Below, in pieces: positions 26,031 through 45,658 of a DNA stretch of 64,000 bases. The position numbers and the translations under genes are program-made. How positions within the stretch are numbered: position 1 is the first letter of the stretch; each line of letters begins with the position of its first letter. The stretch is from a virus (Duplodnaviria > Heunggongvirae > Uroviricota > Caudoviricetes): IMG/VR virus record IMGVR_UViG_3300028840_008157; one strand, given 5' to 3'. The notes beneath the pieces were generated by a model, which saw only the letters and a program-made list of their open reading frames with translations, had not been told where the DNA came from and searched no databases.

Positions 26031-26663
26031 TCAAGCCCACGACTTGGCCCAATGATGGGCGCAATACGTCTCCGGGGAATAAGCCAGCGGCGGCGATTCC
26101 CACCACAAATACGGGCAGAACCGGTACTTCGGGTGAACCGTGAGCGGCAACTCCGGATGATCCAGATGGACCGACGTCACGAAGTCGTTGGCCGTCTGGG
26201 CCACGATGTTCCCGTTGATCTCCCTCGTGGGAAGGAGCTCCATCGTCTTGGCGAAGAACGCCGATCCGGGCGTGGCCCCCATGGGCGTCGTGGATAGGTA
26301 TCTTTTTTCCTCGTGTTGCAGGCCGGCGAAAGCCTCCGCGTCGAGCAATGGGTCGAACGGCCTGAGTACCTCCGTGTCCGCGTCGATGTATATCCCGCCG
26401 TGGCGATGGAGAATCTCGAGCCTCATGATGTCGGCCTTCTGGGCGGGTTTCCGGGCGGCGTCGATCATGGGGGCCATGACGAACCTCCCGACGTCGTGGT
26501 TGGTCCACAACCTGAAGCGCCATCCGGGGTGGAGTTCCCGGCATCGGGCCATCCATCCCTGGAACTCCCTCGGCATCTCCTCGGTCCCGACCCATATGTA
26601 ATGCATGTTTTTTGGTATCAATTTTGTATGATCCTCGTCTGTATGATACCTCAAAAGGGCCAT
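26031..26663 (-). CDS. GT32-like glycosyltransferase (Och1/Gly_transf_sug family, DXD)
   Basis: HYIWVG and QKADIMRLEILHRHGGIYIDADTE motifs. Confidence 0.8.
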   Translation of the reverse strand: MALLRYHTDEDHTKLIPKNMHYIWVGTEEMPREFQGWMARCRELHPGWRFRLWTNHDVGRFVMAPMIDAARKPAQKADIMRLEILHRHGGIYIDADTEVLRPFDPLLDAEAFAGLQHEEKRYLSTTPMGATPGSAFFAKTMELLPTREINGNIVAQTANDFVTSVHLDHPELPLTVHPKYRFCPYLWWESPPLAYSPETYCAHHWAKSWA

Positions 26664-26680
26664 GAGGCGCGGATTGAAAC

Positions 26681-27577
26681 ATGGACTTGATCATACCGGT
26701 CTTCAACAAGCCGGAATATACCCAGGCCTGCCTCGATTCACTGTTGGTAACCGACCCGGGAACGAACTTGCGACCCATCATCGTCGACAACGGATCGCGA
26801 ACGAAGACGCGCCGCCTTCTTGAACGATGGATCAAGGATGCCCGAGAACGACCCTTCTTGTCGGATCCCAGGATCGTCGCCAACAAGGAGAACTTCGGCT
26901 TCGCCGGCGCCCTGAATAGGGCCATCAACGAGTCTCGCGACGGCGAGCTGGCGATGATCATGCATAACGACTGCATCCCCTTCAAGGGATGGGCCAGGGA
27001 AATGCTCGATTGCCTCGAGCTCCACGAGGATGACGACGTCATCGCGGTCGCGCCTCGGACGAATTACGCGAACGAGATGCGTCCGTGCCTCCCCGGCGTC
27101 AGGGAACGATTCGAGGGGCTCAAGTTCCCCAACAAGGACAGGGTCGCCGTCGATCAGATCGACGGGCTCATGCGGGAGTTGTATCCGGAGGACCAGGACG
27201 CTTTCCTGACGAGGCTCCGTGATGACCCTCGAACGTCGTACCTCCCAGAGATATGCTCCTTTTGTCTTCTCGTTCGCAAGCAAGCCCTCCGCGACGTCCC
27301 GTTCGACGAGGACTTTTGGCCGAGGTTCTTCGAGGACAAGCTCTGGTTCCTCCACCACGAGAGGCAGGGCTGCGCTTGCATGCTGTCGAATTGGTCTTAT
27401 GTGCATCACTTCGGGAACATTACCAGCGATGGCCCGGGGTTCTCGATGCCGGACTTGTTCGCGATGAACGAGAAGAAATTCAAGGAGAAGGTTCGCGTCC
27501 TCAACGAGCGTCCCTTCGGCCAAAAGGAGACGAAGCCCGATGTTGCGGTTCATAACGACATGCATGGGGCGCCTTGA
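26681..27577 (+). CDS. GT2-family glycosyltransferase (GT-A fold)
   Basis: LIIPVFNKPEYTQACLDS...IVDNGS signature; 17-bp divergent gap from GT32 gene. Confidence 0.8.
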   Translation: MDLIIPVFNKPEYTQACLDSLLVTDPGTNLRPIIVDNGSRTKTRRLLERWIKDARERPFLSDPRIVANKENFGFAGALNRAINESRDGELAMIMHNDCIPFKGWAREMLDCLELHEDDDVIAVAPRTNYANEMRPCLPGVRERFEGLKFPNKDRVAVDQIDGLMRELYPEDQDAFLTRLRDDPRTSYLPEICSFCLLVRKQALRDVPFDEDFWPRFFEDKLWFLHHERQGCACMLSNWSYVHHFGNITSDGPGFSMPDLFAMNEKKFKEKVRVLNERPFGQKETKPDVAVHNDMHGAP

Positions 27578-30500
27578 ACACGCCAAGAAGGCCGTCCGGA
27601 GCCTGCTCCCCCAACCCGACAGCGGGATCGTGTTCGTGGACTGGGGTTGTCCGGATAATTCCGGAAATTGGATGATCAACCTCCAGCGCGAACAACCCGA
27701 CAAGTCGATCATCGTGCTCCAGGCTCCGTGGGCCAAGAATTTCAACCTCTCCGGAGCCCGCAACCTGGGGGCGCGAAGCGGGGCCCTCGCCAAGGACGAC
27801 GTCCTTTGCTTCGTCGATTGCGACATCGTCGCGTCCGCCAGCTTGTCGGCGGAAATATCGAGGAGGATCGAGCCGGGGGTTTTCCTGACCTTCCAGCCAC
27901 GCGGACTTCCGACGGACGGTACATGCGTCGTCCGCCGAGGGGACTTCGAGCGCGTCGGGGGGTACGACGAGAACTTCAGGAGCTATGGGCACGAGGACGC
28001 CGATTTCTACGACGCGCTTCGTTTCGCCGGCCTCAAGGAGAGGCACTTGCCCGTTTCCCTGGTCGAGCACGTCGATCACGAGCCCGACAAGGAACGCTAC
28101 GAGATGAGGCTTAACTCCTGCGAGAACCAGATGTACCGCAGGACCAAGTGGGAACTCGCCCGAAGGCTTGGCAAGCCGCTGTCCGGCGAGGAGCGAACGT
28201 CCCTGTATGGCTCGCTCGTCCAGCGTTATCAACGGCTAGATCGACCAGAACCGGACGTCCCCCCGGCGTCGCCCAAGGTTTCTTTCTGCACCGCCTGCAA
28301 GGGAAGGGAATGGCAGTTACGGGCCACGTACAAGAAGAACATCGAGGACAATCTCTGCTACGGCAACGTCGAGTTCGTCCTGCTTAATTATGACTCCCCA
28401 GGCGACATCGATGAACTCGTCAGGGACGAGCTCAAGGAGTACATTGACCGAGGCGTCCTCAAGTACTACGCGCTCAAGACTCCCGACAACGCCACCCCGT
28501 GGCATTGCTCCGTGGCGAAAAACGTCACCCACAGGCTAGCCATGGGCGACATCGTATGTAACCTGGACGCGGACAACATGACGAAGCCGAACTTCGCCAC
28601 GCTGCTCGCCAAGACATGCAGGCCGGGCGTGGCCCTCCGGGCGCAGGGGCAGAAGGGCGCCGGCGGCATGATCGCCATGTGGCGCAAGGACTTCCTGTCC
28701 GTCGGCGGATACGACGAGAGCTTCCTGGCCGTGGGACACCAGGACAACGACATGGAGGATCGCCTATGGGCTGCCGGGCTGGAAGTCGCCCTTTTCCGGT
28801 CGATGCCCAACACGGTGATACCCAACACCAATGTAGACCGGATGAGGTTCGCCGGGGGCGGTCAGTACTTCGCGATGTCCGAGGAGAACAGGCGTCGCAA
28901 GGAAAAGAACAAGCAACTCGGACGCGTCGCGGTCAACGAGTTCGGATTCAAGCCCGTCGAGCTCCTCTTGAACTTCGACAAGGAGGTGACGCTGGACGCC
29001 TCCAATCCGGACCTCGTTACGACGATCTCCGACGTGAACCCCCTCTACAAGAGCTTCGCGTGGTCCAAACCATTCGACGAGGAACCGTCGGGGTGCTGGT
29101 ACGTGGTACACAAGGATTGGCGCGATCCGCTCTTCCTGAAGCCCGACGGAGATTTCTACCGGCCCTCCAAGGACGACGGGAAGTGGAGCCACGTCGGCAA
29201 CCGCCTGCACGTGTTATGGGACAACTGGGCCCCCGAGACGCTCGGCGTGAGCGGTGACGACGTCATCAGGGGTCGCAACATGCGCGCCATGCGCCTCGGA
29301 AACTGGAAGCCGGGGGGCTCCCCTCGGCGGCTGCTTGGTCCAGAGGCCTGGAAGGACGTGTTCGAGCCATGGCGCGGCAAGAAGGCCGCCTACTTGCAGA
29401 TGTACGGGAACGTCGGGGACCAGATGATCTATGACGCCACGTTGCAACTGATGTCCCATTACGGCATCAGCTACGAGCGCTGGCACGACGACTGCGACGT
29501 CGACGTCCTGATGATCACCGGGGGAGGCAACCTCGGCGAGGAGGGCCAGGCCAAGAGGCGCAAGAAGGTCATCGACTGGGCGATCAAGAAGGGCGTCAAG
29601 TGCGTGATCCTGCCGCAAACGATGATCCGGAAGGGCAACGAGACGTTCGCCAAGGAAGTCGACGTCTACGCCAGGGAGGACGCCACGCGCGCCATCGTCG
29701 ACGGATCGCGCTTCGCCCCGGACATGGCGCTCGGGTACCGGGCCGACCTGGAGCTCCCGGAACCGGTGTTCGACAAGGGCTACTTCTGCTCGAGGAGAAC
29801 CCATCGGTTCGTCCACGCCTGCGACCCGACGAGGCTATGCGATACGCCCCAGGGGTACGTCGCCCTGGCGGCGCTCTTCAAGGAGATCGTGACGAACCGC
29901 CTCCACTTCGCCATCGCCGGCCTCATCGCGGGACGCAAGGTCACGCTGTTCCCGAACGAGTACCACAAGAACAAGGCGGTCTGGGAGGCTTCCCTGAGGC
30001 ATCTCGGCTGCGAATGGCGCGACGACATGGTCCCGGAGGAGGAGATCCCGGAAGACGACGTCGTGGCCCAGCTATCTTTCTTCATCTGCTACGGCAAGAG
30101 GACGCCCCTCGCCAATCTGACCGACCCTATCGACGTCTACGTATTCGGGACCCAACGAAGCGGAAACCACGGAATCATCAAGTGGCTCCTCGGTCAATTC
30201 AAGCACCTGAACCCGGACGACAACCTGCGCAAGGAGGGCATTTTCAGGAACGACTGGAACAACGGCGGCCACAACGAGAACTTCGTCCCGGACGACAGCC
30301 GTATCCCCAGGAAGGACAACGTCAGGCTCATCAGCTACGAGAACGACTGGAACGTCCTCGATCCGGAGAGGCGCGACATGCTCCTGCGGGACGACCCGCA
30401 TGTCCGGAAGAGGTGCTTCGTGGTCCTGAGAAGCCCCCTCAACTGGTTCGCGTCGACGACGCGCTGGTCCAAGCGAACCCCTAAGGACAAGATCGTCGAG

Positions 30501-30824
30501 CTGATGATCCGGTACTTCGAGGACTTCTACCTGGAGCCGAAAGATCCTCGGGTGATCCCGATCCTGTTCGATCGATGGTTCGTGGACAAGGAATACAGGA
30601 TGAAGATCGCCAGGGAGATCGTCGACGATCCCAATGACAGGGCCTTCGGTACGATGGACGCCTTCAGCACGCCCAGCTCTTTCGACGGGTGGGGTCATCG
30701 ATTCGACGCGAAAGCGCTCAAGGTCCTCGAGCGGTACAAGCAACTCTCCAAGGAGGACATGGAAGCCCTCCTCGCCAACCCGCGGATCATGAGGATACTC
30801 GAGGCGCTGGGGGATGTCCCGTAG
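27540..30824 (+). CDS. Giant multidomain glycan-modifying enzyme (1094 aa): two GT-A modules (DCD/DAD, GGYDE..GHED.D), polysaccharide pyruvyltransferase-like domain (NRLHFAIAGLIAGRKV), C-terminal sulfotransferase-like P-loop region
   Basis: Motifs FITTCMGRLEH..VDWGCP..CFVDCDIVAS..VGGYDENFRSYGHEDADF; ISFCTACKGREWQL..NLDADN; pyruvyl-transferase C-motif; GTQRSGNHG. Confidence 0.8.
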   Translation: MLRFITTCMGRLEHAKKAVRSLLPQPDSGIVFVDWGCPDNSGNWMINLQREQPDKSIIVLQAPWAKNFNLSGARNLGARSGALAKDDVLCFVDCDIVASASLSAEISRRIEPGVFLTFQPRGLPTDGTCVVRRGDFERVGGYDENFRSYGHEDADFYDALRFAGLKERHLPVSLVEHVDHEPDKERYEMRLNSCENQMYRRTKWELARRLGKPLSGEERTSLYGSLVQRYQRLDRPEPDVPPASPKVSFCTACKGREWQLRATYKKNIEDNLCYGNVEFVLLNYDSPGDIDELVRDELKEYIDRGVLKYYALKTPDNATPWHCSVAKNVTHRLAMGDIVCNLDADNMTKPNFATLLAKTCRPGVALRAQGQKGAGGMIAMWRKDFLSVGGYDESFLAVGHQDNDMEDRLWAAGLEVALFRSMPNTVIPNTNVDRMRFAGGGQYFAMSEENRRRKEKNKQLGRVAVNEFGFKPVELLLNFDKEVTLDASNPDLVTTISDVNPLYKSFAWSKPFDEEPSGCWYVVHKDWRDPLFLKPDGDFYRPSKDDGKWSHVGNRLHVLWDNWAPETLGVSGDDVIRGRNMRAMRLGNWKPGGSPRRLLGPEAWKDVFEPWRGKKAAYLQMYGNVGDQMIYDATLQLMSHYGISYERWHDDCDVDVLMITGGGNLGEEGQAKRRKKVIDWAIKKGVKCVILPQTMIRKGNETFAKEVDVYAREDATRAIVDGSRFAPDMALGYRADLELPEPVFDKGYFCSRRTHRFVHACDPTRLCDTPQGYVALAALFKEIVTNRLHFAIAGLIAGRKVTLFPNEYHKNKAVWEASLRHLGCEWRDDMVPEEEIPEDDVVAQLSFFICYGKRTPLANLTDPIDVYVFGTQRSGNHGIIKWLLGQFKHLNPDDNLRKEGIFRNDWNNGGHNENFVPDDSRIPRKDNVRLISYENDWNVLDPERRDMLLRDDPHVRKRCFVVLRSPLNWFASTTRWSKRTPKDKIVELMIRYFEDFYLEPKDPRVIPILFDRWFVDKEYRMKIAREIVDDPNDRAFGTMDAFSTPSSFDGWGHRFDAKALKVLERYKQLSKEDMEALLANPRIMRILEALGDVP

Positions 30825-31470
30825 GATATCGTTCTGCACGACCTGCAAGGGGAGGCTCTGGCAGCTACGCCAGACGTACCTGCTCAACGTCGAGACGGCG
30901 ATCGAGGAGCATGACGACGTCGAGTTCGTCCTGGTGAACTACATGTCCCCTGACGAGTTGGACGACTGGGTATCGACGAGGCTCTCCCGCGTCGAGGGGC
31001 TCGTCTACGTCCGCCTCCGGGAACCCCTCCCCTGGCACGTCTGCAAGGCCAAGAACATGGGTCACCGGGCGACGACCGGCGACGTCATCGTCAACCTCGA
31101 CGCCGACAACTTCCTCGGCGAGGGGTACGTCTCCAGGGTCGTCGCGGAGGTCGGACCCGGGAACGCCTCGCGCCTGGTCGGGCACCCGTCCGTGGGCGGC
31201 CGGATCGCCGTCCATAGGGACGACTTCTTCGCCGTCGGCGGCTACGACGAGTCGCTGGCCCCCATGGGCCACGAGGACAACGACCTGGAGGCGAGGCTCG
31301 TCCTTAACGGGGTCAAGGTGGCCCATTGGCCACGCGGCCCGTTGCCGGTCGACAACACGGACGAGCAGCGCGCCGAGTTCTGCGACGCGAATTTCCCCGA
31401 ATGCGCCAGGCGAAGCGAGGAGATCAGCGCCGGGAACCTGAGGGCCGGGAGGATCGTCGCCAACTCATGA
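30814..31470 (+). CDS. GT-A glycosyltransferase (type-II module, CTTCKGRLWQL / DADN / GGYDESLAPMGHED)
   Basis: Near-identical module architecture to second module of 32788..36339. Confidence 0.75.
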   Translation: MSRRISFCTTCKGRLWQLRQTYLLNVETAIEEHDDVEFVLVNYMSPDELDDWVSTRLSRVEGLVYVRLREPLPWHVCKAKNMGHRATTGDVIVNLDADNFLGEGYVSRVVAEVGPGNASRLVGHPSVGGRIAVHRDDFFAVGGYDESLAPMGHEDNDLEARLVLNGVKVAHWPRGPLPVDNTDEQRAEFCDANFPECARRSEEISAGNLRAGRIVANS

Positions 31471-32060
31471 GGTTCGTCTTCGTCCACATCCAGAAGACCG
31501 GCGGAGACAGCGTTCGCTCGGCCCTGGGGCTTCCCGTCACCGGGAGGACCAAGCACTTCTCGGCCAGCGAGCACCTCGGAAGGATCGGGGTCGAGGCTTG
31601 GGGGAGCTCCTTCAGCTTCTCGTTCGTCAGGAACCCGTGGGACCGCCTCGTCTCATGGTGGGCGATGATGAGGAGAATCCGGCGTGAGAACCCGGAGGGC
31701 CGCGGACTCAACCCGTTCGCCAAGTACATCCTCGACAACTCCGATACGTTCGAGGAGTTCCTGTCCTGCGACGAGGTCATGGACTTGCCGGACGGCGCCC
31801 GATCGCTCTGGAGGAACCAATACGATTACCTGACCGGTCCCGACGGATCCATGATCGTGAGCTTCGTCGGGCGGTTCGAGCGCATCGAGTCGGACTTCGA
31901 AAAGGTCGCCAGGATCATCGGCCGCGACGCGAAGGTTCCCCACGTCAACAAGTCCCATCACGATCATTACTCCTCGTATTACACGCCCACGCTGGCGAGG
32001 ATCGTCGGCGAGCGCTTCGCGAGGGACGTCGAGGCGTTCGGGTACGGCTTCGAGGGTTAG
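31467..32060 (+). CDS. Sulfotransferase-family protein
   Basis: 5'-PSB-like motif FVFVHIQKTGGDS; start set at internal ATG forming ATGA overlap with upstream stop (track ORF begins earlier with Arg-rich junk). Confidence 0.65.
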   Translation: MRFVFVHIQKTGGDSVRSALGLPVTGRTKHFSASEHLGRIGVEAWGSSFSFSFVRNPWDRLVSWWAMMRRIRRENPEGRGLNPFAKYILDNSDTFEEFLSCDEVMDLPDGARSLWRNQYDYLTGPDGSMIVSFVGRFERIESDFEKVARIIGRDAKVPHVNKSHHDHYSSYYTPTLARIVGERFARDVEAFGYGFEG

Positions 32061-32064
32061 GGAA

Positions 32065-32784
32065 TTGTACACGATGGAGGAGAACTGGGCGCTGGTCGAG
32101 GAAGCCAGGCGCAGGGTTTCCGGGCGCCGACCGCGCGAGCTCGGGATCCTGTTCCTCTATCACAAGACGTGCGACGTAACCGAGAGGAACCTGGAGTCGC
32201 TCGAGCGATCGGGTCATCTCGTGATCCCGATCTCGATGGAGAGGGGCGCGTACTTCTCTTCCGGTTACTGGCTCGAGCAGACCCCGTTCTGGGGCGACCT
32301 CACGGGGTACGACCCGCGGAGGTGCTGGTATAATATGGACGCCTGCTATTACGAGTACTATCGCAGGCGCAACGAGAACTGCAAGCGATGGCTCCTCGCG
32401 GAATGGGACGTCCTGTGCAAGGGACGCGTCGAGGACTTCTACGGGAACCTCTGGGACGAGGACTTCGTCGCCGCCACGATCCATCCCCCTGAGGGTAGCC
32501 GCTGGCATTGGTTCAAGGAGGTCGAATCGCTGCCTTACTACATGCGCGGACGCGCCTTCGGGGCGTCGCCCCTCGCCGGCGTCCTGTTGTCGGACGACTG
32601 CATGGAACGGATCGTCCGCGAGTCGTGGCGCATCGACGCCTTCTGCGAGCTGAGGATCGCCACGCTCGCCAGGTTCGCGGGGCTCCTGCCGATTCGCAAT
32701 CCCAGGGCGCGGGGAAAGCTGAAATGGAGGCCGAGCCCGGTGGTCGACGGCGACGGCCTCTGGCATCCGGTCAAGGAAATGTGA
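32065..32784 (+). CDS. Hypothetical protein (239 aa) within glycan cluster
   Basis: Clean ORF, Trp/Tyr-rich; no motif recognised. Confidence 0.5.
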   Translation: MYTMEENWALVEEARRRVSGRRPRELGILFLYHKTCDVTERNLESLERSGHLVIPISMERGAYFSSGYWLEQTPFWGDLTGYDPRRCWYNMDACYYEYYRRRNENCKRWLLAEWDVLCKGRVEDFYGNLWDEDFVAATIHPPEGSRWHWFKEVESLPYYMRGRAFGASPLAGVLLSDDCMERIVRESWRIDAFCELRIATLARFAGLLPIRNPRARGKLKWRPSPVVDGDGLWHPVKEM

Positions 32785-32787
32785 CCC

Positions 32788-35700
32788 ATGTTCCTCGTCG
32801 CCAAGCGTGAGATCACGGAGCACAAGGGCGACCCGGAGGAGATGAAGAAGCTCCTTCTCCGGGACGACTACCTTTACGCCTGCTTCCTGTACTCCGACCC
32901 GCTCAGCCCCTTGTTCGTCCACGTCAAGCCCGGGAAGGCCAGGCTGATGGCCGACTGGGAGAGCAACGACTTCTGGTTCATGGAAGTCCCGACGTCCTTC
33001 CTGTACCCGTCCGAGACGAGCCTGAGGATGGGCCATGGGGCTTCCATGGCCCACTTCTCCAGGCTTGGATGGATCGCCGAGGATGACGCCTGGATCGAGA
33101 ACCGGATGCCCGTCCGTCAATACGAGCAGAGGATCCAAGGGCTCCTCGGTCATTTCGAAGAGAAAAGGTTGTTGTTCTTCGGCTCCCTGGACGGACACGA
33201 CGAGAGGGGCGAGACGAGGAGGTCCCAAGTCAAGCTCCTCGAGACGGCCGGATTCACCATCGTGACGAAGTCCTTCTTCCCCGAACCCACGAGGAAGTTG
33301 ATCGACGTCCTCGAGGACGAGAGGTGCTGCGCCGTCCTGGGGATGGACGGACTGAGCGTGGGCTGCATGAGGGACCATGAGGTCGCGTTGTCGGCCGTCC
33401 CCTACCTGAGGGTCACGAGGACGATCCAGAACGTTCCCTTCGTCAACCCGACTGGCCGCGCCTGGGTCGCGACGGCGCAGGGAGCGGACGTCGGTCGCGC
33501 CTTCGCGGAGATGAAGGCGTCGGCCTCGTGCGGGACAATGTCCGAGCGACTTCTCGACGCCAGGGACGTGTCCTTGGCGATGAGGGACAATTGGCGCTTC
33601 TTCCAATGCCTCGACGCCTGCTGCTTCGATTCCGATTCGGCCCTCCGGGCGGCCGAGGAGATCGCGATTCGAGACGCGTCGATTCCCGAGGCGATCGAGG
33701 GGGCGCTTCCCGGGAAAGTCCTGGAAGCCGAGAAGGTGGATACCTTCATGGTGTTCGATTCCGACGGGTCTCTCCTGCCGGGGAGATTCAAGATCGGGGA
33801 AGTCCATGGCGCCTCGGAGGGGCGGCCGGCCCTCCTCCAATCGCTGGTGGGCGAGAAGGGCCTCCCCAAAAACCCCTTGATATCGTTCGTGGTGCCTTGC
33901 ATGGGAAGGCTCGAGCATCTGCAACGGGCGCTCCCGAGGTTGTCCCAGCAGCCCAATTCAGAGGTCGTCATCGTCGACTGGTCGTGCCCGGAGTATTGCG
34001 GAGACTGGGCCGACAAGTTCCCCCGGACGCGCGTCGTCAGGGTCCCGGGCCAACGGACGTTCAACCTGTCCAAGGCGAGGAACGCCGGCGCGGGGGAGGC
34101 TCGCGGGGAGTGGCTTTGCTTCCTTGACTGCGACATGATCGTGTCGCCCAAGTTCGCGACGGAGCTATCGAAGGGATTCAAGGACAAGTCCTACGTCAGC
34201 TTCGGAACGCTCGGGTCGGCCGGCCATTCGGGGATGACGACGTGTCGCAAGGCCGATTGGGAGGCCGTCGGGGGCTATGACGGTCGCATGGAGGGCTGGG
34301 GGTACGAGGACACCGACTTCAAGCATCGCCTCAGGCTCAGGGGGCTCTCGGGCGTCGTGGTCGACATGTCGCTCGCCAAGCACATAGATCACGACAACGA
34401 GGCGAGGACCAGGTTTTACGACGATGACCAGGCGACGAGCCACGGCAGGAACGAAGCCCTTTCCCAACGGAAGATCAAGGATCGCAAGAAGATCGTCGGC
34501 CTATGGAAGGCCACGCATTCCTCGTGGAAGGGCTTCCTGTTCTTCGACGAGGACGGCTCGTTCTCCCGTCAGGCGCACGGAGATCACGGAAGCTGGCTGC
34601 TCGAGGATGGCGAGCTGGTCCTCAGGTGGGCCAAGTGGCCCCCCGAAAGGTTGAAGGAGAAGGAACCGGGCCAATACGCCGGGACGTTCATGACCCTGTC
34701 AAAGGAGGAGCCTCTCAAAAGGAAGGACGACGAGAGCCTCCAATACGTCGGCGATTGGACCGTTAGGCATGACGACTGGAAGGACACGATTAGCCTCCTT
34801 CGGGACGGAACATTCCATAGGTCGAGCGTCAAGTGGGAAGGGGGCACGTGGGAGTCGCTGGGGGGCCGCGTCCTGTTGAAGTGGGACCGATGGGGGACGG
34901 AAACGGCCAACTACGAGGACGGAAGCCTCGTCGGCGACCGGTTCGTCGCCGTCAGGCCGTGGCGCCTGGAACACCCCAAGATATCCCTTTGCACGACCTG
35001 CAAGGGGAGGCTGTGGCAATTATCACGGACGTTCCTTGGAAACGTAAGGAGAGCCCTGGAGGAGTACGACAACGTCGAGTTCGTCCTGATGGACTACGGC
35101 TCCCAGGACGGGCTCGAGGATTGGGCGCGGACGAAGCTCCGGAAGTACGTCGACGAGGGGATCGTGAAGTACTGCAAGCTCGTCGACGATCTTCCGTGGC
35201 ATGCGTCCAAGTCCAGGAATCTGGCCCATCGGATGGCGAGCGGGGTCATCCTTTGCAACGTGGACGCCGACAACTTCCTCGGCGAGGGATTCGTCAAGAA
35301 ACTATCCTTCGAAGTCGGACCTAAGAAGGCCGTCAGGCTGGCTGGCGACGCGTCCGTGGGGGGACGCATCGCCGTCCACAAGGACGACTTCTTCGCCGTC
35401 GGCGGTTACCTCGAGTCGTTGGCCCCCATGGGCCACCTCGACAACGAGTTCGAGCGCAGGCTCGGGAGCAACGGCGTCCGCGTGATCCACTGGCCGAGCG
35501 GGCCGTTGCCGGTCGAGAACACGGACGCCCAGCGGGCCGAGTTCTGCGACAGGTCGTACGCCGAGTGCATGGCCCACAGCAAAAAGGTCATGGACCGGAA
35601 CCCCGTGGTCAACGAGCGGTTCCAGCGCGCCACGGTCCGCGTGAACTGGTCTAGAACCGTCGAGCTGGGGCCGGAACGCGGGGACGTTAGAAAGAAACTG

Positions 35701-36339
35701 GGGATCGCCCCGGCGCCTGCGAAGGTCAGGATCGTCTCCTTCTTCAAGGACAACATCCCGGAGGAGGCGAGGTCGGCGCAGCGGGCGGTCATGAGGAAGT
35801 TCGGGCAACGGATCGAGCAGTTCCGGTTCGCGGCCACGCACCAGCAGGCCATCGACGGGTTCATGAGCGAAATGGATTGGAGCCGCCACGACTTCCTCGT
35901 CATCCTCGACATCGACGCCGTGCCCACGAGCGACGAGGGAATCCCGTACATGGTCGAGGAGATGAGGAGAGGGCGCCTCGTCGGCTGCGCGCAGGCCGCG
36001 AACCACGGCCATATGAACCGCGACCACGTCTACGTCGGGCCGTTCTGCGTCGGCCTGACGAGGGACGTCTTCGAGGCGCTCGGGAGGCCCTCCTTCCTGG
36101 AGACCGCCAGGTCCGACGTCGGGCAGGAGCTCACGTGGCTGGCGCAGGAGAAAAACGTGCCCGTCTCCATGATGCTGCCGACGAGCGTCGAGGAGCCCCG
36201 CTGGGCGCTCGGCCCGACGGGCAAATTCGGGCTGGGGACGGGATACGGGGTCGCCGGCGTCGAGTTGTTCTGGCACGCCTTCGAGTCCCGGTACCGGACC
36301 GAGCGGTTCGTCAGGAAGTGCAAGGAGCTGCTGGCATGA
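32788..36339 (+). CDS. Giant multidomain glycosyltransferase (1183 aa): N-terminal unknown region, type-I GT-A module, Trp-rich repeat domain, type-II GT-A module, C-terminal unknown domain
   Basis: VVPCMGRLEHL..IVDWSCPEY..CFLDCDMIVS..GGYDGRMEGWGYEDTDF and ISLCTTCKGRLWQL..NVDADNFLGEGF..GGYLESLAPMGHLDNE. Confidence 0.8.
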   Translation: MFLVAKREITEHKGDPEEMKKLLLRDDYLYACFLYSDPLSPLFVHVKPGKARLMADWESNDFWFMEVPTSFLYPSETSLRMGHGASMAHFSRLGWIAEDDAWIENRMPVRQYEQRIQGLLGHFEEKRLLFFGSLDGHDERGETRRSQVKLLETAGFTIVTKSFFPEPTRKLIDVLEDERCCAVLGMDGLSVGCMRDHEVALSAVPYLRVTRTIQNVPFVNPTGRAWVATAQGADVGRAFAEMKASASCGTMSERLLDARDVSLAMRDNWRFFQCLDACCFDSDSALRAAEEIAIRDASIPEAIEGALPGKVLEAEKVDTFMVFDSDGSLLPGRFKIGEVHGASEGRPALLQSLVGEKGLPKNPLISFVVPCMGRLEHLQRALPRLSQQPNSEVVIVDWSCPEYCGDWADKFPRTRVVRVPGQRTFNLSKARNAGAGEARGEWLCFLDCDMIVSPKFATELSKGFKDKSYVSFGTLGSAGHSGMTTCRKADWEAVGGYDGRMEGWGYEDTDFKHRLRLRGLSGVVVDMSLAKHIDHDNEARTRFYDDDQATSHGRNEALSQRKIKDRKKIVGLWKATHSSWKGFLFFDEDGSFSRQAHGDHGSWLLEDGELVLRWAKWPPERLKEKEPGQYAGTFMTLSKEEPLKRKDDESLQYVGDWTVRHDDWKDTISLLRDGTFHRSSVKWEGGTWESLGGRVLLKWDRWGTETANYEDGSLVGDRFVAVRPWRLEHPKISLCTTCKGRLWQLSRTFLGNVRRALEEYDNVEFVLMDYGSQDGLEDWARTKLRKYVDEGIVKYCKLVDDLPWHASKSRNLAHRMASGVILCNVDADNFLGEGFVKKLSFEVGPKKAVRLAGDASVGGRIAVHKDDFFAVGGYLESLAPMGHLDNEFERRLGSNGVRVIHWPSGPLPVENTDAQRAEFCDRSYAECMAHSKKVMDRNPVVNERFQRATVRVNWSRTVELGPERGDVRKKLGIAPAPAKVRIVSFFKDNIPEEARSAQRAVMRKFGQRIEQFRFAATHQQAIDGFMSEMDWSRHDFLVILDIDAVPTSDEGIPYMVEEMRRGRLVGCAQAANHGHMNRDHVYVGPFCVGLTRDVFEALGRPSFLETARSDVGQELTWLAQEKNVPVSMMLPTSVEEPRWALGPTGKFGLGTGYGVAGVELFWHAFESRYRTERFVRKCKELLA

Positions 36340-37532
36340 GACGACGCGCGAGACCAAAACTCTTCTGCGTCAAGCCTCGGCTTCCCGTCGAGGAGCCGAA
36401 GCAGATTGTCGTCCAAGACGAGCACAAGGAGCCGGAATCATTCCTCGAAAGGGTCGCCAATCAGAGGATTCTCGTCGTGGGAAACGGGCCAAGCGCGCTT
36501 CGATGCGCCAAGATGATGGAGGAGTTCGACGTCGTCGTCAGGTTCAACAAGTTCGCCATCAGGGAGGGGACCGGCGCAAGGACGGACGTATGGGCGTGCT
36601 GCCTACTTCCCGACGTCATAGACCATATTGTTTCCAATGTCGAGAACATCAAACCCAAAGTCGTATTTCTTGTGCAACACGATAAATCTGATGATTGGTT
36701 GTCAAAATGCATTGACCGAGTTAAAAAAACAGGCATTCGCCTTTGTATATCTTGCCGAGACGAGTGGGAACGTATGGTACAAGAGTTAGACGGGGGTCCT
36801 CCAACAACGGGAGCCATGGTCGTAAACAAATTAATAGAAACGGGGGCCAAACCTACATTGATAGGGTTTGACCAGGTTTGCGGAAATCTAAAAAGTTATT
36901 TTAGACAAGAGGATATGTACTGGAGACACGTTCCATTTATCGAAAGTACATGGCTTATAAAACAAAGAAACCATGGATATCTCAACATTGAAGGCTTAAT
37001 TACTGAAAAAGAAGAAGATGAAAAATATTCGAGTTGTTATGCCCATGGATACGGTCATGGTCCTATTTTTGAATTATTTTCGTTCGGCAAAAAAATAAAC
37101 GCTTTTGATCATGTTCGAACCATATTTGACGCCGGATGCGGTACTGGCGAAGCCATGTTAATGCTCCGGAGCAATGGTTTTTATGTATCAGGAATAGATA
37201 TATCGTCTTTGGCAGTCGACAAGGCTTCGTCTTCGGGACTAGAAGTGATTCATGGGTCGCTAACACAAATCCCCTCCTGTCATTTTGACCTCGTATGGTG
37301 TTGTGATGTACTTGAACATTTGCCAATGATTTGGTTAAACGAAGCTTTGATAAAAATCAAAGGGGTTTCTAAAAGATGCTTATTCAGCATATCTACACGT
37401 AAAAGTATGTTTCGTAAAAATTTGCATTTAACGGTTCGCTCTCCAGGTTGGTGGTCTGAATTGTTGTCTTCCTATTTTTCTATACGACAGTACGAAACTA
37501 CCAAAGATTCCATCAAGATTTTTACGGCCTAA
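36336..37532 (+). CDS. Fusion protein: CstII/GT42-like sialyltransferase-type N-domain + class I SAM-dependent methyltransferase C-domain
   Basis: ILVVGNGPSALRCAKMMEEFDVVVRFNKF (cf. CstII IIAGNGPSL..DFDVFRCNQF); FDAGCGTGEAMLML...FDLVWCCDVLEHL MTase motifs I and post-I; ATGA overlap with upstream stop; 3' two-thirds AT-rich. Confidence 0.75.
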   Translation: MRRRARPKLFCVKPRLPVEEPKQIVVQDEHKEPESFLERVANQRILVVGNGPSALRCAKMMEEFDVVVRFNKFAIREGTGARTDVWACCLLPDVIDHIVSNVENIKPKVVFLVQHDKSDDWLSKCIDRVKKTGIRLCISCRDEWERMVQELDGGPPTTGAMVVNKLIETGAKPTLIGFDQVCGNLKSYFRQEDMYWRHVPFIESTWLIKQRNHGYLNIEGLITEKEEDEKYSSCYAHGYGHGPIFELFSFGKKINAFDHVRTIFDAGCGTGEAMLMLRSNGFYVSGIDISSLAVDKASSSGLEVIHGSLTQIPSCHFDLVWCCDVLEHLPMIWLNEALIKIKGVSKRCLFSISTRKSMFRKNLHLTVRSPGWWSELLSSYFSIRQYETTKDSIKIFTA

Positions 37533-38910
37533 CAGCAATTACAAAGAACGTGTTGTTCGGCAATCGTAATTCCGTCGTCGTTCCAACATATACATCGTAT
37601 GGATGTATTGTTTGGCCTACTTTAATTCCAACTCGTTCTCCTGTTTTATTGAGTCCCTTCGGAATACGAACATTACGTGTAGAATCTTTGGCGAAGAATA
37701 CCGTCATAGGCATATAGACATCTACATCAAAAGGCGAAGACGCTATGCCTTGAAGAAGAGTCCATCCTTCGTATTTTTTGGGTACATCGATCAGAGTATA
37801 ATCCCTATTAGTATATAGTCTTTGACCATCCTTGAGTGGTATTTGGTTGCATGATGTCTTGAATCTGAATCTAATCAATCGCGTCTGTCCTCTTCGTGGC
37901 GTATCGGAGAATAGAATAGTTTTTTGTTGGTTTTCTATTCTCTTGTTTTGGTCACAAAAACCTAACTTTGCCAAGCTCAATATTCGAGTTTCTTCTGTAA
38001 TGCATACAGTACATGGGGCCATGGCTCTTTGCCCTTCTTTGTCAATTAAAGGCTTCCCATCCGCAAAAACCATCCAGCCGTCCCCCATCTCGGCGGACGT
38101 CGTCACCTCCACGTCGAACTTCGGTTTCTCCAGCTTGACCACGTCGGTCTTCACGATGGCGTCCCCCGCGACGGCCTCCACCGTCGCGTCCTCGTACTTG
38201 TCCTTCCGCAGGACCAGCTTGGCAGGCCCCTTGGGCAACCGGACCAAACCCGGGGTCCGAAGCCCCGTGTCGCGCAGCTCGCCGCCCTGCCTGACCAGGA
38301 TGGTGGCCCCTCGCGGGTCGCTCTGGACGTACACCTTGCCGTCGCCGCGCTCGGCACTGCCGACCACGTCGGTCTTGGGCTTGGCGGATACCATCTTCAT
38401 CAGCTTGAGGGACTGGTCGAGCGCGGTGAACCCCTCCGGCGTCCCCTTGAAGCGGTCCGCGACCTCGAAGTAGCGGACGGCCTTCAGGAGAGGGTCGGTG
38501 GTGTTCCGGGCGTACTCGTTGGCCCTGACCAGCCAGACCTTGGCGTCCTTGGGATCGACCTTCTTCTCGACGACCTCCTGGACGACTTTGGCGACCTTGG
38601 CGTCGCCGGCCAGCGCGTTGGCCTGGGCCAGCGTCATCCTCTTCTTGGCCCAGTAGAGCAGGGAGTTGGCCTCGGCGGCCCTCTCCTCGTTCCCGGACGC
38701 CTGGAACGCCTCGCTCGCCTTGGCGAGGACCTTGACGGCCTCGACGAGCTTCTCCTCCTTCAGGAGGGTCACGCCCTCCTTGAGCAGCTCCTGGGGTGTG
38801 GGGTTGGACGCCGTCACGACCACCTCGTGGTCCTTGGTTGGGCGTTCAACGCCGAAAAGCGGCATGACGAAGACCAGGACCAGCGGCAGCGCTCTCGTTA
38901 GGAATCTCAT
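37522..38910 (-). CDS. Secreted protein (462 aa) with signal peptide and helical/TPR-like N-domain; C-terminal third AT-rich
   Basis: MRFLTRALPLVLVFVMPLFG signal; convergent 10-nt overlap with 36336..37532. Confidence 0.65.
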   Translation of the reverse strand: MRFLTRALPLVLVFVMPLFGVERPTKDHEVVVTASNPTPQELLKEGVTLLKEEKLVEAVKVLAKASEAFQASGNEERAAEANSLLYWAKKRMTLAQANALAGDAKVAKVVQEVVEKKVDPKDAKVWLVRANEYARNTTDPLLKAVRYFEVADRFKGTPEGFTALDQSLKLMKMVSAKPKTDVVGSAERGDGKVYVQSDPRGATILVRQGGELRDTGLRTPGLVRLPKGPAKLVLRKDKYEDATVEAVAGDAIVKTDVVKLEKPKFDVEVTTSAEMGDGWMVFADGKPLIDKEGQRAMAPCTVCITEETRILSLAKLGFCDQNKRIENQQKTILFSDTPRRGQTRLIRFRFKTSCNQIPLKDGQRLYTNRDYTLIDVPKKYEGWTLLQGIASSPFDVDVYMPMTVFFAKDSTRNVRIPKGLNKTGERVGIKVGQTIHPYDVYVGTTTELRLPNNTFFVIAVRP

Positions 38911-42990: not shown

Positions 42991-43192
42991 TTCCTTCCCT
43001 CCTCCATTGGATCGCGTCGAGAATCTCGTCCTCGAGAATCCTCCAATTCGGGTAGCCGATGTCGATTCTCGATCCTATGCTGGCCCGAATATAACGCCGG
43101 AACGGCAATGACGAAAAGACGTTCCGAAATGCCCGGAACGAATGGAACCTCCTGAACGCGACGCCGGCCCGTTCGCTGGAGAACTCGCACAT
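42968..43192 (-). CDS. Possible small basic protein (74 aa) immediately downstream of ARH gene
   Basis: ATG sharing one nt with ARH stop (TAATG); GGGGAACGAATA upstream; tail of a junk-headed track ORF. Confidence 0.3.
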   Translation of the reverse strand: MCEFSSERAGVAFRRFHSFRAFRNVFSSLPFRRYIRASIGSRIDIGYPNWRILEDEILDAIQWRREGNVRVRHG

Positions 43193-44157
43193 TATTCGTT
43201 CCCCTTCCTCAAGGCGTCCGCCAACCCGAGCAGCTTCTCCTCGTGCTCGACGCGTCCGAGCCATTCCTTGGGAATCGCGCCCATCCCCAAACGAGCCCCC
43301 ATCAACGCGCCGGTGATGCAGGCGATGGTGTCCGAGTCGCCGGGCGTGTTGGCCGCCATCAACACGGCCTTCCGGAAGTCGTCCGGGGAGGACATGCAAC
43401 AGTAGAGGGCGCAGGCGACGGCCTCGTGACCCTGCCACCCGTCTCCGAGCTGGCCGCCCATCAGGGCCTCCTCGGGGGACAACAAGCCGACCGATGACGT
43501 GGCGGCGTTGATCGACGTGGAGAACTCGTCGCTTATCCCGCCGACGACGTCCATGAGCTCGTGGCCCCACGTCCCGACGGGCGCGCCCCTCATCGCCACC
43601 GAGCAGAGGAGGGCCGTCGCCACGGAGGCGCAACGGGCGACGTCGTCGGCGTGGGTGATCTGGGCCGTCGCGATCCCGTACTGGACGATGTTCGGGACGT
43701 CCTCGTGAAACCAAAGCCCGATGGGGGCGGAGCGCATGGCCGTCCCGCTCCCCCTCGACCCGGCGATCCCCGCGTTGCCCCAGTCCTTCCCGGACGCGAG
43801 CGCGCGGCAGGCCGCCATGCAGGTGTTGCCCGGATCCCTGGCCTGCGCCGGGTCCTGCTGGGACCTGAACCACTCGACGAACTCGGCCGAGAGCCTCGTC
43901 CCGTAGCGGGCCAGGACGGCGTCCCCCTCGACGACGCCGACGCGGGGCTTGGACGCGATCAGCGCTCTCGCCACGCGCATGGTCATTTGCGTGTCGTCGG
44001 AGACGATGGCGTTCTCGGGCAGAGACGTGACCCCGTCGGGGCCATGAATCTTCCTTATCTCGTCCATCGACCCCACGAACTCGACCTGGTAACCGAGGCA
44101 ATCGCCCAGGGCCAGCCCGATCATGCAACCCTTGTACTTGTCGTCGTCTCTCATCAT
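43192..44157 (-). CDS. ADP-ribosylglycohydrolase (ARH/DraG family)
   Basis: GLALGDCLGYQVEF, SDDTQMT, GNAGIAGSRGSGTAMR, GDSDTIACITGAL motifs. Confidence 0.85.
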   Translation of the reverse strand: MMRDDDKYKGCMIGLALGDCLGYQVEFVGSMDEIRKIHGPDGVTSLPENAIVSDDTQMTMRVARALIASKPRVGVVEGDAVLARYGTRLSAEFVEWFRSQQDPAQARDPGNTCMAACRALASGKDWGNAGIAGSRGSGTAMRSAPIGLWFHEDVPNIVQYGIATAQITHADDVARCASVATALLCSVAMRGAPVGTWGHELMDVVGGISDEFSTSINAATSSVGLLSPEEALMGGQLGDGWQGHEAVACALYCCMSSPDDFRKAVLMAANTPGDSDTIACITGALMGARLGMGAIPKEWLGRVEHEEKLLGLADALRKGNE

Positions 44158-45626
44158 TAGAACCCCTTGAACTTGTCCAAGATCTGCGCCTTCAGGTCGT
44201 CCGCGAAGTCGAGCGTATGCTTGTCGTCGGAGAAGGAGCTCGGCGCGATGACCCCTCCGACGGCGTCAATGTAGCAACTGAACTTGCCTTCCCCGAGGCG
44301 GTAAAGCTTCTCGGGGATCTCGTCGTAACCGGCCCAACCGTTCTTCTTCGACTCCTCCATGAGCGTCGTGTCGGCCGACAGCGTCCACGGGAAGTCCTTG
44401 CGCGTCGTGACCTTTCTGTTCGCCTTCTTGACGTCGATGATCCAGTCGGAATATTGCTTCGGAGAGTACTTCAGTCCTCGCCCGGCGCGCTTGAATCCAA
44501 GGGCGACGACGCCGAGGTCGAGCTTGATCGCGTCCTCGATGAAGTACGGGAACTCGTAGGACTCCATGATGCCCATCGGGACGTGTATCTTGACCTTGTT
44601 CCGGTCGAAGCCGTTGTCGTCGACCAGGGCCGCCAGGCGCGGGAGCATCGTCCTGTCCGTCGTCGAGATGGCGAACGCCCCGCAGTTCTCCTTGACCGAG
44701 TCCCTTATCTCTGGGTTCCGCATCCAGTCGAGCGAGCGCGTCGAGAAGTTCGGGACGACGTCGTTCTTCCTGAAGTTCCCCAGGAGCTCGGCGAACTTCG
44801 GGTGGAGGACCGGGTCGCCGCCCCCGATGGCGACCTCGAAGACGCCCATCTCCGAGAGGGCCCACGCGATCGAGTACAGGTCGTCATGAATCGCGTCGGT
44901 CCCGGCCGATGACGAGCTCTGGTAGCAATACTCGCAGGCGCAATGGCACCTCTCCGTGATCTTCAGGTCGACGAGCTCGGGGACGAGCGCCCGCTCGACC
45001 TTCTTGGCGGGGACGCCGTCCATCCGGCAACGAATCTTCGTCCCGGTCCCTTGGTTGAACAGGACCCATTCGTCGCTGTCCTTGCGGCAAATCCAATCTC
45101 GGCAATAATCCGGCCTCATCGAAACGCCATGGTCGTCCATGAACGCCCTGGCCGCGTCCTCCGGTAGTCCGGTGACGAATGGTAGCTCGACCTTTCCCTC
45201 GTCGACGAGATAATGATTGTGGTCGTCGTTGTCGTTTCCGCCCAGGATGGCGACCTCGGGACGCAGGACGTTCTCCATGAGCTCGTCGAACAGCTCCCTG
45301 CTCGGCATGATCTGCCCGTGGGTCCTCGGGATGACGAAACAACTCTGGTGATCGACGTAGCCGTGCTTGTCGAGGGGAACCCCGACCCATTCCTTGACGA
45401 TGATTTCGACCATGTCGTTCGGGAGGTTCTGGGAGAGCGTGGCCTTCAGGATTTGCGCCATGTAGCTCTGCTTGGCGCGCGCGCTCTTGGCCGTGAAGAA
45501 GTTCCAGCCGAACTCGCCGTCTTCCACGTCCTTGTCGTTCACCCCGGACGGGTCGCGGACGTGGACGATGGAATGCGTGGAGCTGCTGTTCGTGGCGAAC
45601 CCCAGCCTGACGTTGAATATCCGCAT
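44157..45626 (-). CDS. Radical SAM enzyme (489 aa) with ~200-aa N-terminal extension of unknown function
   Basis: CxxxCxxC cluster ITERCHCACEYCY plus GGGDP-like downstream motifs. Confidence 0.85.
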   Translation of the reverse strand: MRIFNVRLGFATNSSSTHSIVHVRDPSGVNDKDVEDGEFGWNFFTAKSARAKQSYMAQILKATLSQNLPNDMVEIIVKEWVGVPLDKHGYVDHQSCFVIPRTHGQIMPSRELFDELMENVLRPEVAILGGNDNDDHNHYLVDEGKVELPFVTGLPEDAARAFMDDHGVSMRPDYCRDWICRKDSDEWVLFNQGTGTKIRCRMDGVPAKKVERALVPELVDLKITERCHCACEYCYQSSSSAGTDAIHDDLYSIAWALSEMGVFEVAIGGGDPVLHPKFAELLGNFRKNDVVPNFSTRSLDWMRNPEIRDSVKENCGAFAISTTDRTMLPRLAALVDDNGFDRNKVKIHVPMGIMESYEFPYFIEDAIKLDLGVVALGFKRAGRGLKYSPKQYSDWIIDVKKANRKVTTRKDFPWTLSADTTLMEESKKNGWAGYDEIPEKLYRLGEGKFSCYIDAVGGVIAPSSFSDDKHTLDFADDLKAQILDKFKGF

Positions 45627-45658
45627 CTATCACCTCCCACGGCAAGCATACCACTAAT

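What the first reader, a model, noticed from the sequence alone, without database searches (positions are those of the whole stretch)
36600..38050. Sharply AT-rich ~1.4-kb patch covering the convergent 3' ends of two genes
GC falls from about 62% to roughly 35-40% across the C-terminal part of the sialyltransferase-MTase fusion gene (the MTase domain) and the C-terminal third of the convergent secreted-protein gene. The two genes overlap by 10 nt. The patch suggests a recently acquired foreign module, such as a swapped C-terminal domain or an inserted cassette, within an otherwise homogeneous high-GC region. The SAM-MTase domain itself is in the foreign patch, so the fusion may be a recent domain capture.
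Basis: seen in the sequence. Interest (0 to 1): 0.6.

Follow-up and report, generated by a model that had tools for sequence, protein, structure and literature searches.

The report
Foreign low-GC recombination tract, two genes
A 1.46-kb stretch of low-GC DNA has replaced the tail ends of two facing genes (a sugar-transferase/methyltransferase and a secreted surface-type protein) at the edge of a glycan-synthesis operon, most likely by recombination with a lower-GC relative; this is a clear but ordinary case of cassette swapping at a variable cell-surface locus.

Summary
GC falls from 0.64/0.65 to 0.396 across window 36616-38073, and nothing else in the 64 kb resembles it. The shift sits at synonymous sites: GC3 drops from 0.77-0.94 to about 0.35 while GC2 is unchanged.

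Both boundaries lie inside conserved coding sequence, in frame. The left one is at codon 94, in the middle of a GT29-like sialyltransferase-fold domain and about 365 nt upstream of the methyltransferase domain. The right one is at codon ~280 of the TPR-PEGA secreted protein, in a conserved motif.

Relatives from Planctomycetota-associated metagenome contigs (41-66% GC) keep the same convergent gene pair. They show GC3 breakpoints at the same PEGA motif and carry different C-terminal cassettes.

A 46%-GC relative, L005, holds the closest methyltransferase (49-51% identity) and the closest PEGA C-terminal domain (44%). The two genes are arranged tail to tail there with the same 11-nt overlap.

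Patch codon usage anti-correlates with the host genes (r = -0.43) and resembles low-GC relatives. I found no repeats and no paralogues; the tract has no room for a mobility gene.

Best reading: a homeologous recombination tract swapping a two-gene "tail" cassette. "Foreign module" is supported. "Recent MTase domain capture" and "GT42" are not.

The parts
36616..38073 (.). Low-GC tract (GC 0.396), entirely coding, interpreted as a recombination tract from a lower-GC relative
   Evidence: Change-point fit, window statistics, RSCU anti-correlation with host genes r = -0.43
36600..36627 (+). Left junction zone, immediately after the codons for the conserved motif RTD(V/I)WACCL..DV(I) of the GT29-like domain (codon 94)
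   Evidence: 2-lnL interval, codon alignment with L003/L005, GC3 change point after codon 94
38014..38081 (-). Right junction zone, within the codons for the conserved PEGA-family motif GDGWxVFxDGKPxxDKxGxxAxAPCT (codon ~280)
   Evidence: 2-lnL interval. GC3 change points fall in the same motif in relatives L011, L005, L003 and L019
36336..37532 (+). Last gene of the glycan operon, 398 aa: GT29-like sialyltransferase-fold domain fused to a class I SAM methyltransferase. The start ATG overlaps the upstream stop (ATGA)
36438..36956 (+). GT29-like transferase domain (aa 35-207). Motif L is encoded in GC-rich DNA; motifs S, III-like and VS are encoded in low-GC DNA. All family-invariant residues are retained
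   Evidence: BLASTP to DUF8361 proteins P0002/P0003 at 40-43%. Profile A5 against PDB ST3Gal-I E = 1.8e-8
36981..37529 (+). SAM-dependent methyltransferase domain (aa 216-398). Its closest relative is the stand-alone 194-aa MTase of L005
37522..38910 (-). Secreted TPR-PEGA protein, 462 aa: hydrophobic N-terminus, TPR-like helical domain aa 39-175, beta-sandwiches aa 191-259 and 264-334, variable C-terminal beta domain aa ~343-462
37525..37884 (-). Variable C-terminal domain of the PEGA protein ('NRDY' type, aa 343-462). Its closest relative is the 118-aa ORF of L005
   Evidence: 44% identity, score 248, against <=108 for all others. No Pfam match
37522..37532 (.). 11-nt tail-to-tail overlap of the two stop regions (TTACGGCCTAA). 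The same geometry is present in L005 (CTACGGCTTGA)
26681..36339 (+). Upstream part of the same-strand glycan-synthesis operon (GT2, multi-domain GT2/GT7C/pyruvyl-transferase, sulfotransferase, 1183-aa multi-GT2), GC-rich with GC3 0.79-0.92

Best explanation
The patch is a recombination tract. DNA from a lower-GC relative of the same element family replaced the convergent 3' ends of two genes in one event.

The crossovers resolved inside the last well-conserved coding stretches on each side. On the left this is just after the RTDxWACCL..DV motif of the GT29-like transferase domain. On the right it is within the GDGWxVFxDGKP...APCT motif of the TPR-PEGA protein.

The exchanged unit is a 'tail cassette' with three components:
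- the distal 60% of the transferase domain together with its fused SAM-methyltransferase;
- in tail-to-tail overlap, the end of the second beta-sandwich of the secreted protein;
- the variable C-terminal domain of that protein.

Both reading frames and all family-invariant residues are preserved, so both chimeric proteins are probably functional.

Shown: the compositional break and its location, its synonymous-site nature, synteny and recurrent breakpoints in relatives, and discordant nearest relatives inside versus outside the tract.

Inferred: the mechanism (homologous/homeologous recombination), its recency (no amelioration), and the consequence. The consequence would be a changed terminal glycan decoration and a changed specificity domain of the secreted protein, that is, surface-type switching as in O-antigen or capsule loci.
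For: 1. GC is 0.396 against 0.64/0.65, with boundaries resolved to about 30 and 70 nt. The tract is unique in the 64 kb.
2. GC1/2/3 changes from .61/.41/.76 to .44/.38/.36 in the + gene and from .66/.39/.94 to .46/.40/.34 in the - gene. GC2 is constant, so amino-acid content does not explain the shift.
3. Protein homology is continuous across both junctions. Open frames of 306 and 183 codons in 40%-GC DNA have chance probabilities of 2e-9 and 7e-6.
4. RSCU of the patch against host genes gives r = -0.43. The GC-rich 5' parts of the same two genes give r = 0.87. The patch against low-GC relatives gives r = 0.38-0.52.
5. The convergent pair is conserved in relatives whose backgrounds span 41-66% GC. 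Lower-GC donors with the same synteny therefore exist.
6. L005 (46% GC) carries the nearest MTase (49-51%) and the nearest PEGA C-domain (44%) as one 0.93-kb tail-to-tail module with the same 11-nt overlap. The GC-rich PEGA part is instead closest to L009, L011 and L019.
7. GC3 change points in the PEGA genes of L011, L005, L003 and L019 fall in the same ~25-codon motif as in the window.
8. There are no direct or inverted repeats at the ends, and no repeats or paralogues of the patch elsewhere in the window.
9. The sequence is identical in three assembly sources.
Against: - No close sister of the 546-kb element was found. The nearest PEGA relative is ~63% identical, so the pre-exchange allele is not observed.
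- No near-identical donor was found. The best match is 44-51% amino-acid identity.
- A GC trough at this site is family-wide. A standing local bias, such as weaker GC-favouring forces on a fast-evolving region, could contribute.
- Read-level support across the junctions could not be checked.
- Cassette types do not co-vary strictly. The NRDY-type C-domain occurs next to three different neighbours in L005, L007 and L008.
Confidence: 0.75

Rival explanations
1. In-situ compositional decay. The variable 3' region evolves fast under AT-biased mutation, with weak selection or weak GC-biased gene conversion. The conserved, frequently recombining 5' parts are kept GC-rich. No discrete transfer event is needed.
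For: The trough recurs at the same place in many relatives. In low-GC relatives the conserved PEGA 5' part is a high-GC island: L005 GC3 0.71 against ~0.44 background, and L012, L013, L019 and L028 behave likewise.
Against: The transition from GC3 0.94 to 0.34 is step-like, within tens of nt and within a single predicted domain. The low-GC part includes conserved, alignable sequence: GT29-like aa 94-207 and PEGA aa 281-325. Nearest relatives are discordant. Codon usage matches low-GC relatives.
Confidence: 0.1
2. Insertion of a mobile cassette by site-specific or illegitimate recombination (transposon, integron-like cassette, miniature island).
For: The composition is foreign and the edges are sharp.
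Against: There are no target-site duplications or terminal inverted repeats. There is no room for a mobility gene because the tract is 100% occupied by the two gene tails. Both junctions are in frame at homologous positions of conserved domains.
Confidence: 0.04
3. Metagenome assembly chimera that joins two related populations of different GC content.
For: The window comes from metagenome assemblies, and related elements with other cassettes occur in ENA assemblies with neighbouring accession numbers.
Against: The junctions are identical in a MEGAHIT contig, a Logan contig (2 runs) and a JGI record. A chimera would need two precise in-frame switches 1.46 kb apart between sequences that share little nucleotide identity.
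Confidence: 0.03
4. AT-richness maintained by selection for a local function, for example termination or insulation of convergent transcription where no intergenic spacer exists, or binding of a nucleoid-associated silencer. This could act alone or on top of transfer.
For: The 3' ends overlap by 11 nt, and no terminator-like site lies between the genes. The trough is recurrent in relatives.
Against: A functional element would not need 1.46 kb. Relatives have troughs of very different depth and extent, for example 3.3 kb in L011. No promoter or terminator enrichment was found.
Confidence: 0.05

Closest known systems
O-antigen / capsule gene-cluster switching in Enterobacteria (e.g. Salmonella Gal-initiated O-antigen clusters)
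   Same: A glycan-synthesis operon with a low-GC, type-specific segment. Recombination junctions lie inside shared genes, so a single gene has a GC step (rml genes, PMC3715488). The exchange is thought to change surface glycan specificity.
   Different: Only the last 1.46 kb of this operon is foreign. One junction lies in a non-enzymatic secreted protein gene on the opposite strand. The host is a Planctomycetota-associated 546-kb contig of uncertain nature, and no serological or structural data exist.
Rhs / polymorphic-toxin C-terminal tip exchange
   Same: A GC-rich conserved core is followed, within one ORF, by a variable AT-rich extension (PMC7259588). A conserved peptide motif marks the switch point, and the tips are exchanged among relatives.
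   Different: No toxin domain and no downstream same-strand immunity gene are present. The partner here is a convergent glycan-modifying enzyme gene whose own tail is swapped in the same tract.
Phage tail-fibre / receptor-binding-protein C-terminal domain swapping (own knowledge)
   Same: A conserved N-terminal anchor with exchangeable C-terminal specificity domains. Mosaic boundaries lie at conserved linker motifs.
   Different: The PEGA protein has a signal-peptide-like N-terminus and a TPR domain and gives no PHROG hit. No evidence shows that it is a virion protein.
Eukaryotic-type GT29 sialyltransferases (ST3Gal-I, PDB 2WML/2WNB) and bacterial DUF8361 proteins
   Same: The N-domain profile aligns over the whole catalytic core, including the GNG (L), P(T/S)TG (S), HY-like (III) and H..E (VS) motifs, with E = 1.8e-8. 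Identity to the N-halves of DUF8361 proteins is 40-43%.
   Different: The single-sequence Pfam GT29 score is below the gathering threshold (14 against 23 bits). The domain is fused to a methyltransferase instead of the DUF8361 C-half. Donor and acceptor sugars are unknown.

Membership tests
Horizontally exchanged recombination tract (mosaic gene segment) | Composition atypical for the host at synonymous sites | tested here: met
   GC3 is 0.34-0.36 against 0.74-0.94 for every other gene. GC2 is unchanged.
Horizontally exchanged recombination tract (mosaic gene segment) | Sharp boundaries at homologous, in-frame positions | tested here: met
   Boundary intervals are 28 and 68 nt. Homology is continuous across both.
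Horizontally exchanged recombination tract (mosaic gene segment) | Different nearest relatives inside and outside the tract | tested here: met
   Inside, L005 is closest (MTase 49-51%, C-domain 44%). Outside, L009, L011 and L019 are closest (63-79%). Sampling is thin and no formal phylogeny was made.
Horizontally exchanged recombination tract (mosaic gene segment) | A close sister lineage with the unreplaced allele, or an identified donor | tested here: not met
   No relative closer than ~63% (flank) or ~51% (patch) was found among 5.8 billion and 1.84 billion proteins or in the contig collections.
Transposon / integrative cassette | Terminal repeats, target-site duplication, or a mobility gene | tested here: not met
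   Only short chance repeats were found. The tract is fully occupied by two gene tails.
Diversity-generating retroelement or silent-cassette antigenic variation | A template or silent copy homologous to the variable region nearby | tested here: not met
   blastn and tblastn of the patch against the 64-kb window found no second copy. The rest of the 546-kb contig was not searched.
GT29-like sialyltransferase fold | Sequence-profile match across the catalytic core with sialyl motifs L, S, III and VS | tested here: met
   Profile A5 against ST3Gal-I gives E = 1.8e-8 over 8-176 of 191 positions, and against ST6GalNAc-II gives 5.7e-7. The single sequence is below the Pfam gathering score.
   No PF06002 hit at E <= 10. 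Cst-II chains match only at E ~0.03 over the first 44 residues.
GT29-like sialyltransferase fold | Nonulosonic-acid transferase activity | not testable with these tools
   Needs an enzyme assay.
Class I SAM-dependent methyltransferase | Pfam match above cut-off and Rossmann MTase fold | tested here: met
PEGA-domain secreted protein family (Planctomycetota-associated) | PEGA domain and the conserved N-terminal architecture shared with family members | tested here: met
   PF08308 scores 22 bits against 20.8. There are 26 homologues with conserved aa 34-325. All 10 genome hits are Planctomycetota MAGs.
Rhs / polymorphic toxin system | C-terminal toxin domain plus a cognate immunity gene downstream | tested here: not met
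   The C-domain has no Pfam match. The downstream gene is a convergent transferase-MTase gene.

The most novel reading that the evidence does not exclude
The tract could be a matched 'writer-reader' specificity cassette. The transferase/methyltransferase tail would put a terminal (methylated) cap on the operon's glycan. The co-transferred C-terminal beta domain of the secreted TPR-PEGA protein would be the carbohydrate-binding module that recognises that cap. An analogy, from my own knowledge, is the WbdD methyl cap read by the Wzt C-terminal module in E. coli O8/O9a.

Under this reading the tail-to-tail 11-nt overlap keeps writer and reader genetically inseparable. The conserved PEGA motif then acts as a dedicated recombination anchor for cassette exchange among Planctomycetota-associated giant elements of very different GC content.
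Probability: 0.12. Interest if true: 0.7.

Novelty: new member of a known kind. Interest (0 to 1): 0.35.

Why it matters
The tract is a clean, unameliorated example of homeologous exchange between elements that differ by more than 15-20 GC points, with both crossovers inside conserved protein motifs. It shows that a little-known Planctomycetota-associated family of TPR-PEGA secreted proteins and their adjacent glycan operons forms a recombination hot spot with swappable tails.

In practical terms, it marks which parts of the two proteins are likely to determine specificity. It also warns annotators that the MTase fusion is an old architecture, not a fresh capture. It does not reveal a new mechanism.

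Tried and rejected
- Phage DNA database (blastn, distant mode) with the patch: no match.
- IMG/VR scan with the PEGA alignment: no relative.
- Third protein-database search, using the PEGA C-domain alone: no candidates at all, not even the protein itself, so it is uninformative.
- PDB profile search with only 4 N-domains: nothing. It succeeded only after adding fused homologues.
- Flanking direct or inverted repeats, a DGR template, silent cassettes or paralogues: none.
- tRNA or Rfam features in the patch: none.
- Promoter/terminator scan: not enriched.
- Literature search for the sample accessions and DUF8361: no papers.
- Strict co-variation of the MTase with the NRDY-type C-domain: rejected, because L007 and L008 carry that C-domain next to other neighbours.
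Full report
**Observation**

Sliding-window composition shows that the window is uniformly 57-67% GC, except for one tract. A three-segment maximum-likelihood fit places that tract at 36616-38073 (1458 bp). GC is 0.396 inside, against 0.640 and 0.649 on the two sides. The left boundary is resolved to 36600-36627 and the right to 38014-38081.

Outside the tract, 300-bp windows average 0.613 (sd 0.033, minimum 0.48). Inside they average 0.392, which is z = -6.6. The 3' overlap of the two genes is 11 nt (37522-37532), not 10.

**Genes**

- *Gene 36336-37532 (+, 398 aa).* It is the last gene of a same-strand glycan operon that runs from 26681 and encodes GT2s, a pyruvyl-transferase-containing multi-domain protein, a sulfotransferase and a 1183-aa multi-GT2 protein. 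Its ATG overlaps the upstream stop.
- *Gene 37522-38910 (-, 462 aa).* It has a hydrophobic N-terminus. A confident AlphaFold model (pLDDT 85) shows a TPR-like helical domain (aa 39-175), two beta-sandwiches (aa 191-259, the Pfam PEGA match, and aa 264-334) and a C-terminal beta domain.

**Where the boundaries fall**

The left change point is at codon 94 of the 398-aa protein. BLASTP against two DUF8361 proteins (P0002, P0003; 40-43% identity) aligns residues 35-207 without a break. The boundary therefore lies inside one homologous domain, directly after its most conserved motif RTD(V/I)WACCL..DV(I).

The methyltransferase part starts at about aa 216, roughly 365 nt inside the tract.

The right change point is at codon ~280 of the PEGA protein, within the family motif GDGWxVFxDGKPxxDKxGxxAxAPCT. 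Family-invariant residues G293, P299, C300, T301, K315, G317 and F318 are encoded by the low-GC DNA.

**Nature of the shift**

GC at codon positions 1/2/3 changes as follows:

| Gene | 5' part | Part inside the tract |
|---|---|---|
| + gene (398 aa) | .61/.41/.76 | .44/.38/.36 |
| - gene (462 aa) | .66/.39/.94 | .46/.40/.34 |

GC2 does not move, so amino-acid composition is not the cause. All other likely genes in the window have GC3 of 0.74-0.92.

Relative synonymous codon usage of the tract is anti-correlated with the window's genes (r = -0.43). The GC-rich 5' parts of the same two genes correlate at r = 0.87. The tract correlates positively with low-GC relatives (r = 0.38-0.52).

Open frames of 306 and 183 codons in DNA of this composition have chance probabilities of about 2e-9 and 7e-6. 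Both tails are therefore real coding sequence.

**Not an artefact or a mobile element**

The 21 kb around the genes is 100% identical in an ENA MEGAHIT contig of 546.6 kb and a Logan contig of 31 kb seen in two runs. The proteins are also on record from JGI.

There are no meaningful direct or inverted repeats at the ends. No other copy or paralogue of the tract occurs in the window. No tRNA or Rfam feature lies in the tract. No space is left for a mobility gene.

**Relatives**

The PEGA protein has 26 homologues. They share aa 34-325 and then diverge into unrelated C-terminal domains. All ten hits in species genomes are Planctomycetota MAGs; IMG/VR gave none.

The convergent arrangement, transferase-like gene facing the PEGA gene, is conserved in L003/L004 (54% GC), L005/L006 (46% GC), L007 and L008. 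Backgrounds in the family span 41-66% GC.

In close relatives the conserved PEGA 5' part is GC-rich, while the variable C-domain and the partner's 3' end are GC-poor.

GC3 change points recur at the same motif as in the window:

- Window: codon 280.
- L011: codon 281.
- L005: codon 291.
- L003: codon 298.
- L019: the same motif.
- L007, L008 and L009: at the start of the C-domain.

In L011 the low-GC tract is 3.3 kb long and covers a whole glycosyltransferase gene. In low-GC relatives the PEGA 5' part is itself a high-GC island; in L005 its GC3 is 0.71 against about 0.44 for the background. Mosaicism therefore runs in both directions at this locus.

**The module**

L005 encodes, in order:

- a full-length DUF8361 protein;
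- a separate 194-aa methyltransferase, 49-51% identical to aa 216-398 of the window protein and with the same C-terminus;
- a convergent 118-aa ORF, 44% identical to PEGA aa 343-462.

The last two overlap tail to tail by 11 nt: CTACGGCTTGA in L005 against TTACGGCCTAA in the window.

An exhaustive HMMER search of 1.84 billion representatives confirms that this methyltransferase is the nearest relative. For the PEGA C-domain, L005 scores 248 while every other relative scores 108 or less or is unrelated. For the GC-rich PEGA part, the nearest relatives are instead L009, L011 and L019.

Inside and outside the tract thus have different nearest relatives. Both halves of the tract point to one module in a low-GC relative.

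**The fusion**

The window protein corresponds to an L005-type gene pair with DUF8361 aa ~212-440, the spacer and the first ~6 methyltransferase codons missing. However, directly fused transferase-like + methyltransferase proteins exist in at least eight other clusters at 26-36% identity: P0004, P0052, P0066, P0071, P0105, P0117, P0151 and P0164.

The architecture is therefore old. The fusion joint lies within low-GC DNA on both sides. The compositional break is not a signature of domain capture.

**Identity of the N-domain**

A profile of eight N-domains matches mammalian ST3Gal-I (GT29) with E = 1.8e-8 across the catalytic core, and ST6GalNAc-II with E = 5.7e-7. GT42 Cst-II matches only at E ~0.03 over 44 residues. 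The single sequence gives a sub-threshold Pfam GT29 hit. "Sialyltransferase-like" stands; "GT42" does not.

All eleven residues invariant in that alignment are retained in the chimeric domain. The C-domain is a class I SAM methyltransferase.

**Interpretation**

The evidence fits a single homeologous recombination tract from an unsampled lower-GC relative, with crossovers in the last conserved stretches flanking a variable two-gene tail cassette.

The closest known behaviours are:

- O-antigen and capsule cluster switching, where junctions lie inside shared genes and create GC steps (PMC3715488);
- the GC-rich core and AT-rich variable extension of Rhs genes (PMC7259588).

It is not a member of the toxin systems, because it has no toxin or immunity pair. 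It is not a transposon, an integron cassette or a DGR, because none of their defining features was found.

The main rival is in-situ AT drift of a fast-evolving region. The family-wide trough favours it. The step-like boundaries inside conserved sequence, the codon-usage affinity to low-GC relatives and the discordant nearest relatives count against it.

**Limits**

- No close sister and no near-identical donor were found.
- Read-level validation of the junctions was not possible.
- Substrates of the enzyme and the role of the PEGA protein are inferred only.
- The nature of the 546-kb contig (huge phage, other extrachromosomal element or chromosome) is unresolved. The phage-like signals are weak: one virion-structural PHROG hit, an exonuclease-like protein and many small unknown ORFs.

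Noticed in passing
window 52321-52681 (-): A complete tmRNA gene (Rfam 110 bits; tag peptide ANAKNILRLDRSAVALAA) lies in a 64-kb stretch with no tRNAs and almost no recognisable housekeeping genes. It is compatible either with a chromosome or with a huge phage or extrachromosomal element carrying its own tmRNA.
   Followed up: partly
window 3212-19896 (-): A run of very large same-strand genes (1100, 810, 548, 319, 460, 391 and 1967 aa). They carry Rha78A-like Ig, dockerin, Big_7 and PA14 domains and one PHROG 'virion structural protein' hit. They could be surface or adhesin proteins, or virion fibre-like proteins.
   Followed up: partly
window 26031-37532: A large glycan-synthesis cluster, with overlapping starts and stops along the + strand. 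It contains GT2s, a 1094-aa protein with GT2/GT7C/pyruvyl-transferase hits, a sulfotransferase and a 1183-aa multi-GT2 protein. This suggests a sulfated or pyruvylated glycan.
   Followed up: partly
L005 9150-9300 (JGI 3300049893 Ga0499946_0000468): The PEGA gene of this 46%-GC relative is split into 316-aa and 118-aa ORFs. The cause is a frameshift just after the KEGF motif, right at its own GC3 break. It could be a pseudogene, a sequencing error, or a scar of recombination.
   Followed up: partly
L005 9250-10201; also L011, L012, L013, L019, L028: In low-GC relatives the conserved 5' part of the PEGA gene is a high-GC island (for example GC3 0.71 against ~0.44). This is the reverse of the window's situation. 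The conserved part may itself move between high- and low-GC lineages, or it may be held GC-rich by some other force.
   Followed up: partly
L011 5600-8950: A 3.3-kb low-GC tract (0.39-0.46 against ~0.55) covers the PEGA C-terminus and a whole convergent 1017-aa glycosyltransferase gene. The ORFs' 3' ends overlap by about 106 nt.
   Followed up: no
window 20101-20400: This is the only other 300-bp window below 50% GC (0.48). It lies between the 1967-aa gene and the next called ORF. It was not examined further.
   Followed up: no
window 43192-46381 (-): An ADP-ribosylglycohydrolase, a radical-SAM/Fe-S oxidoreductase-like protein and a protein with a C5 DNA-methylase C-terminal fragment lie in a row downstream of many small unknown ORFs.
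   Followed up: no
window 25173-25952 (-): Very strong match to Pfam DUF7873 (E = 2e-71), next to the glycan cluster. Function unknown.
   Followed up: no
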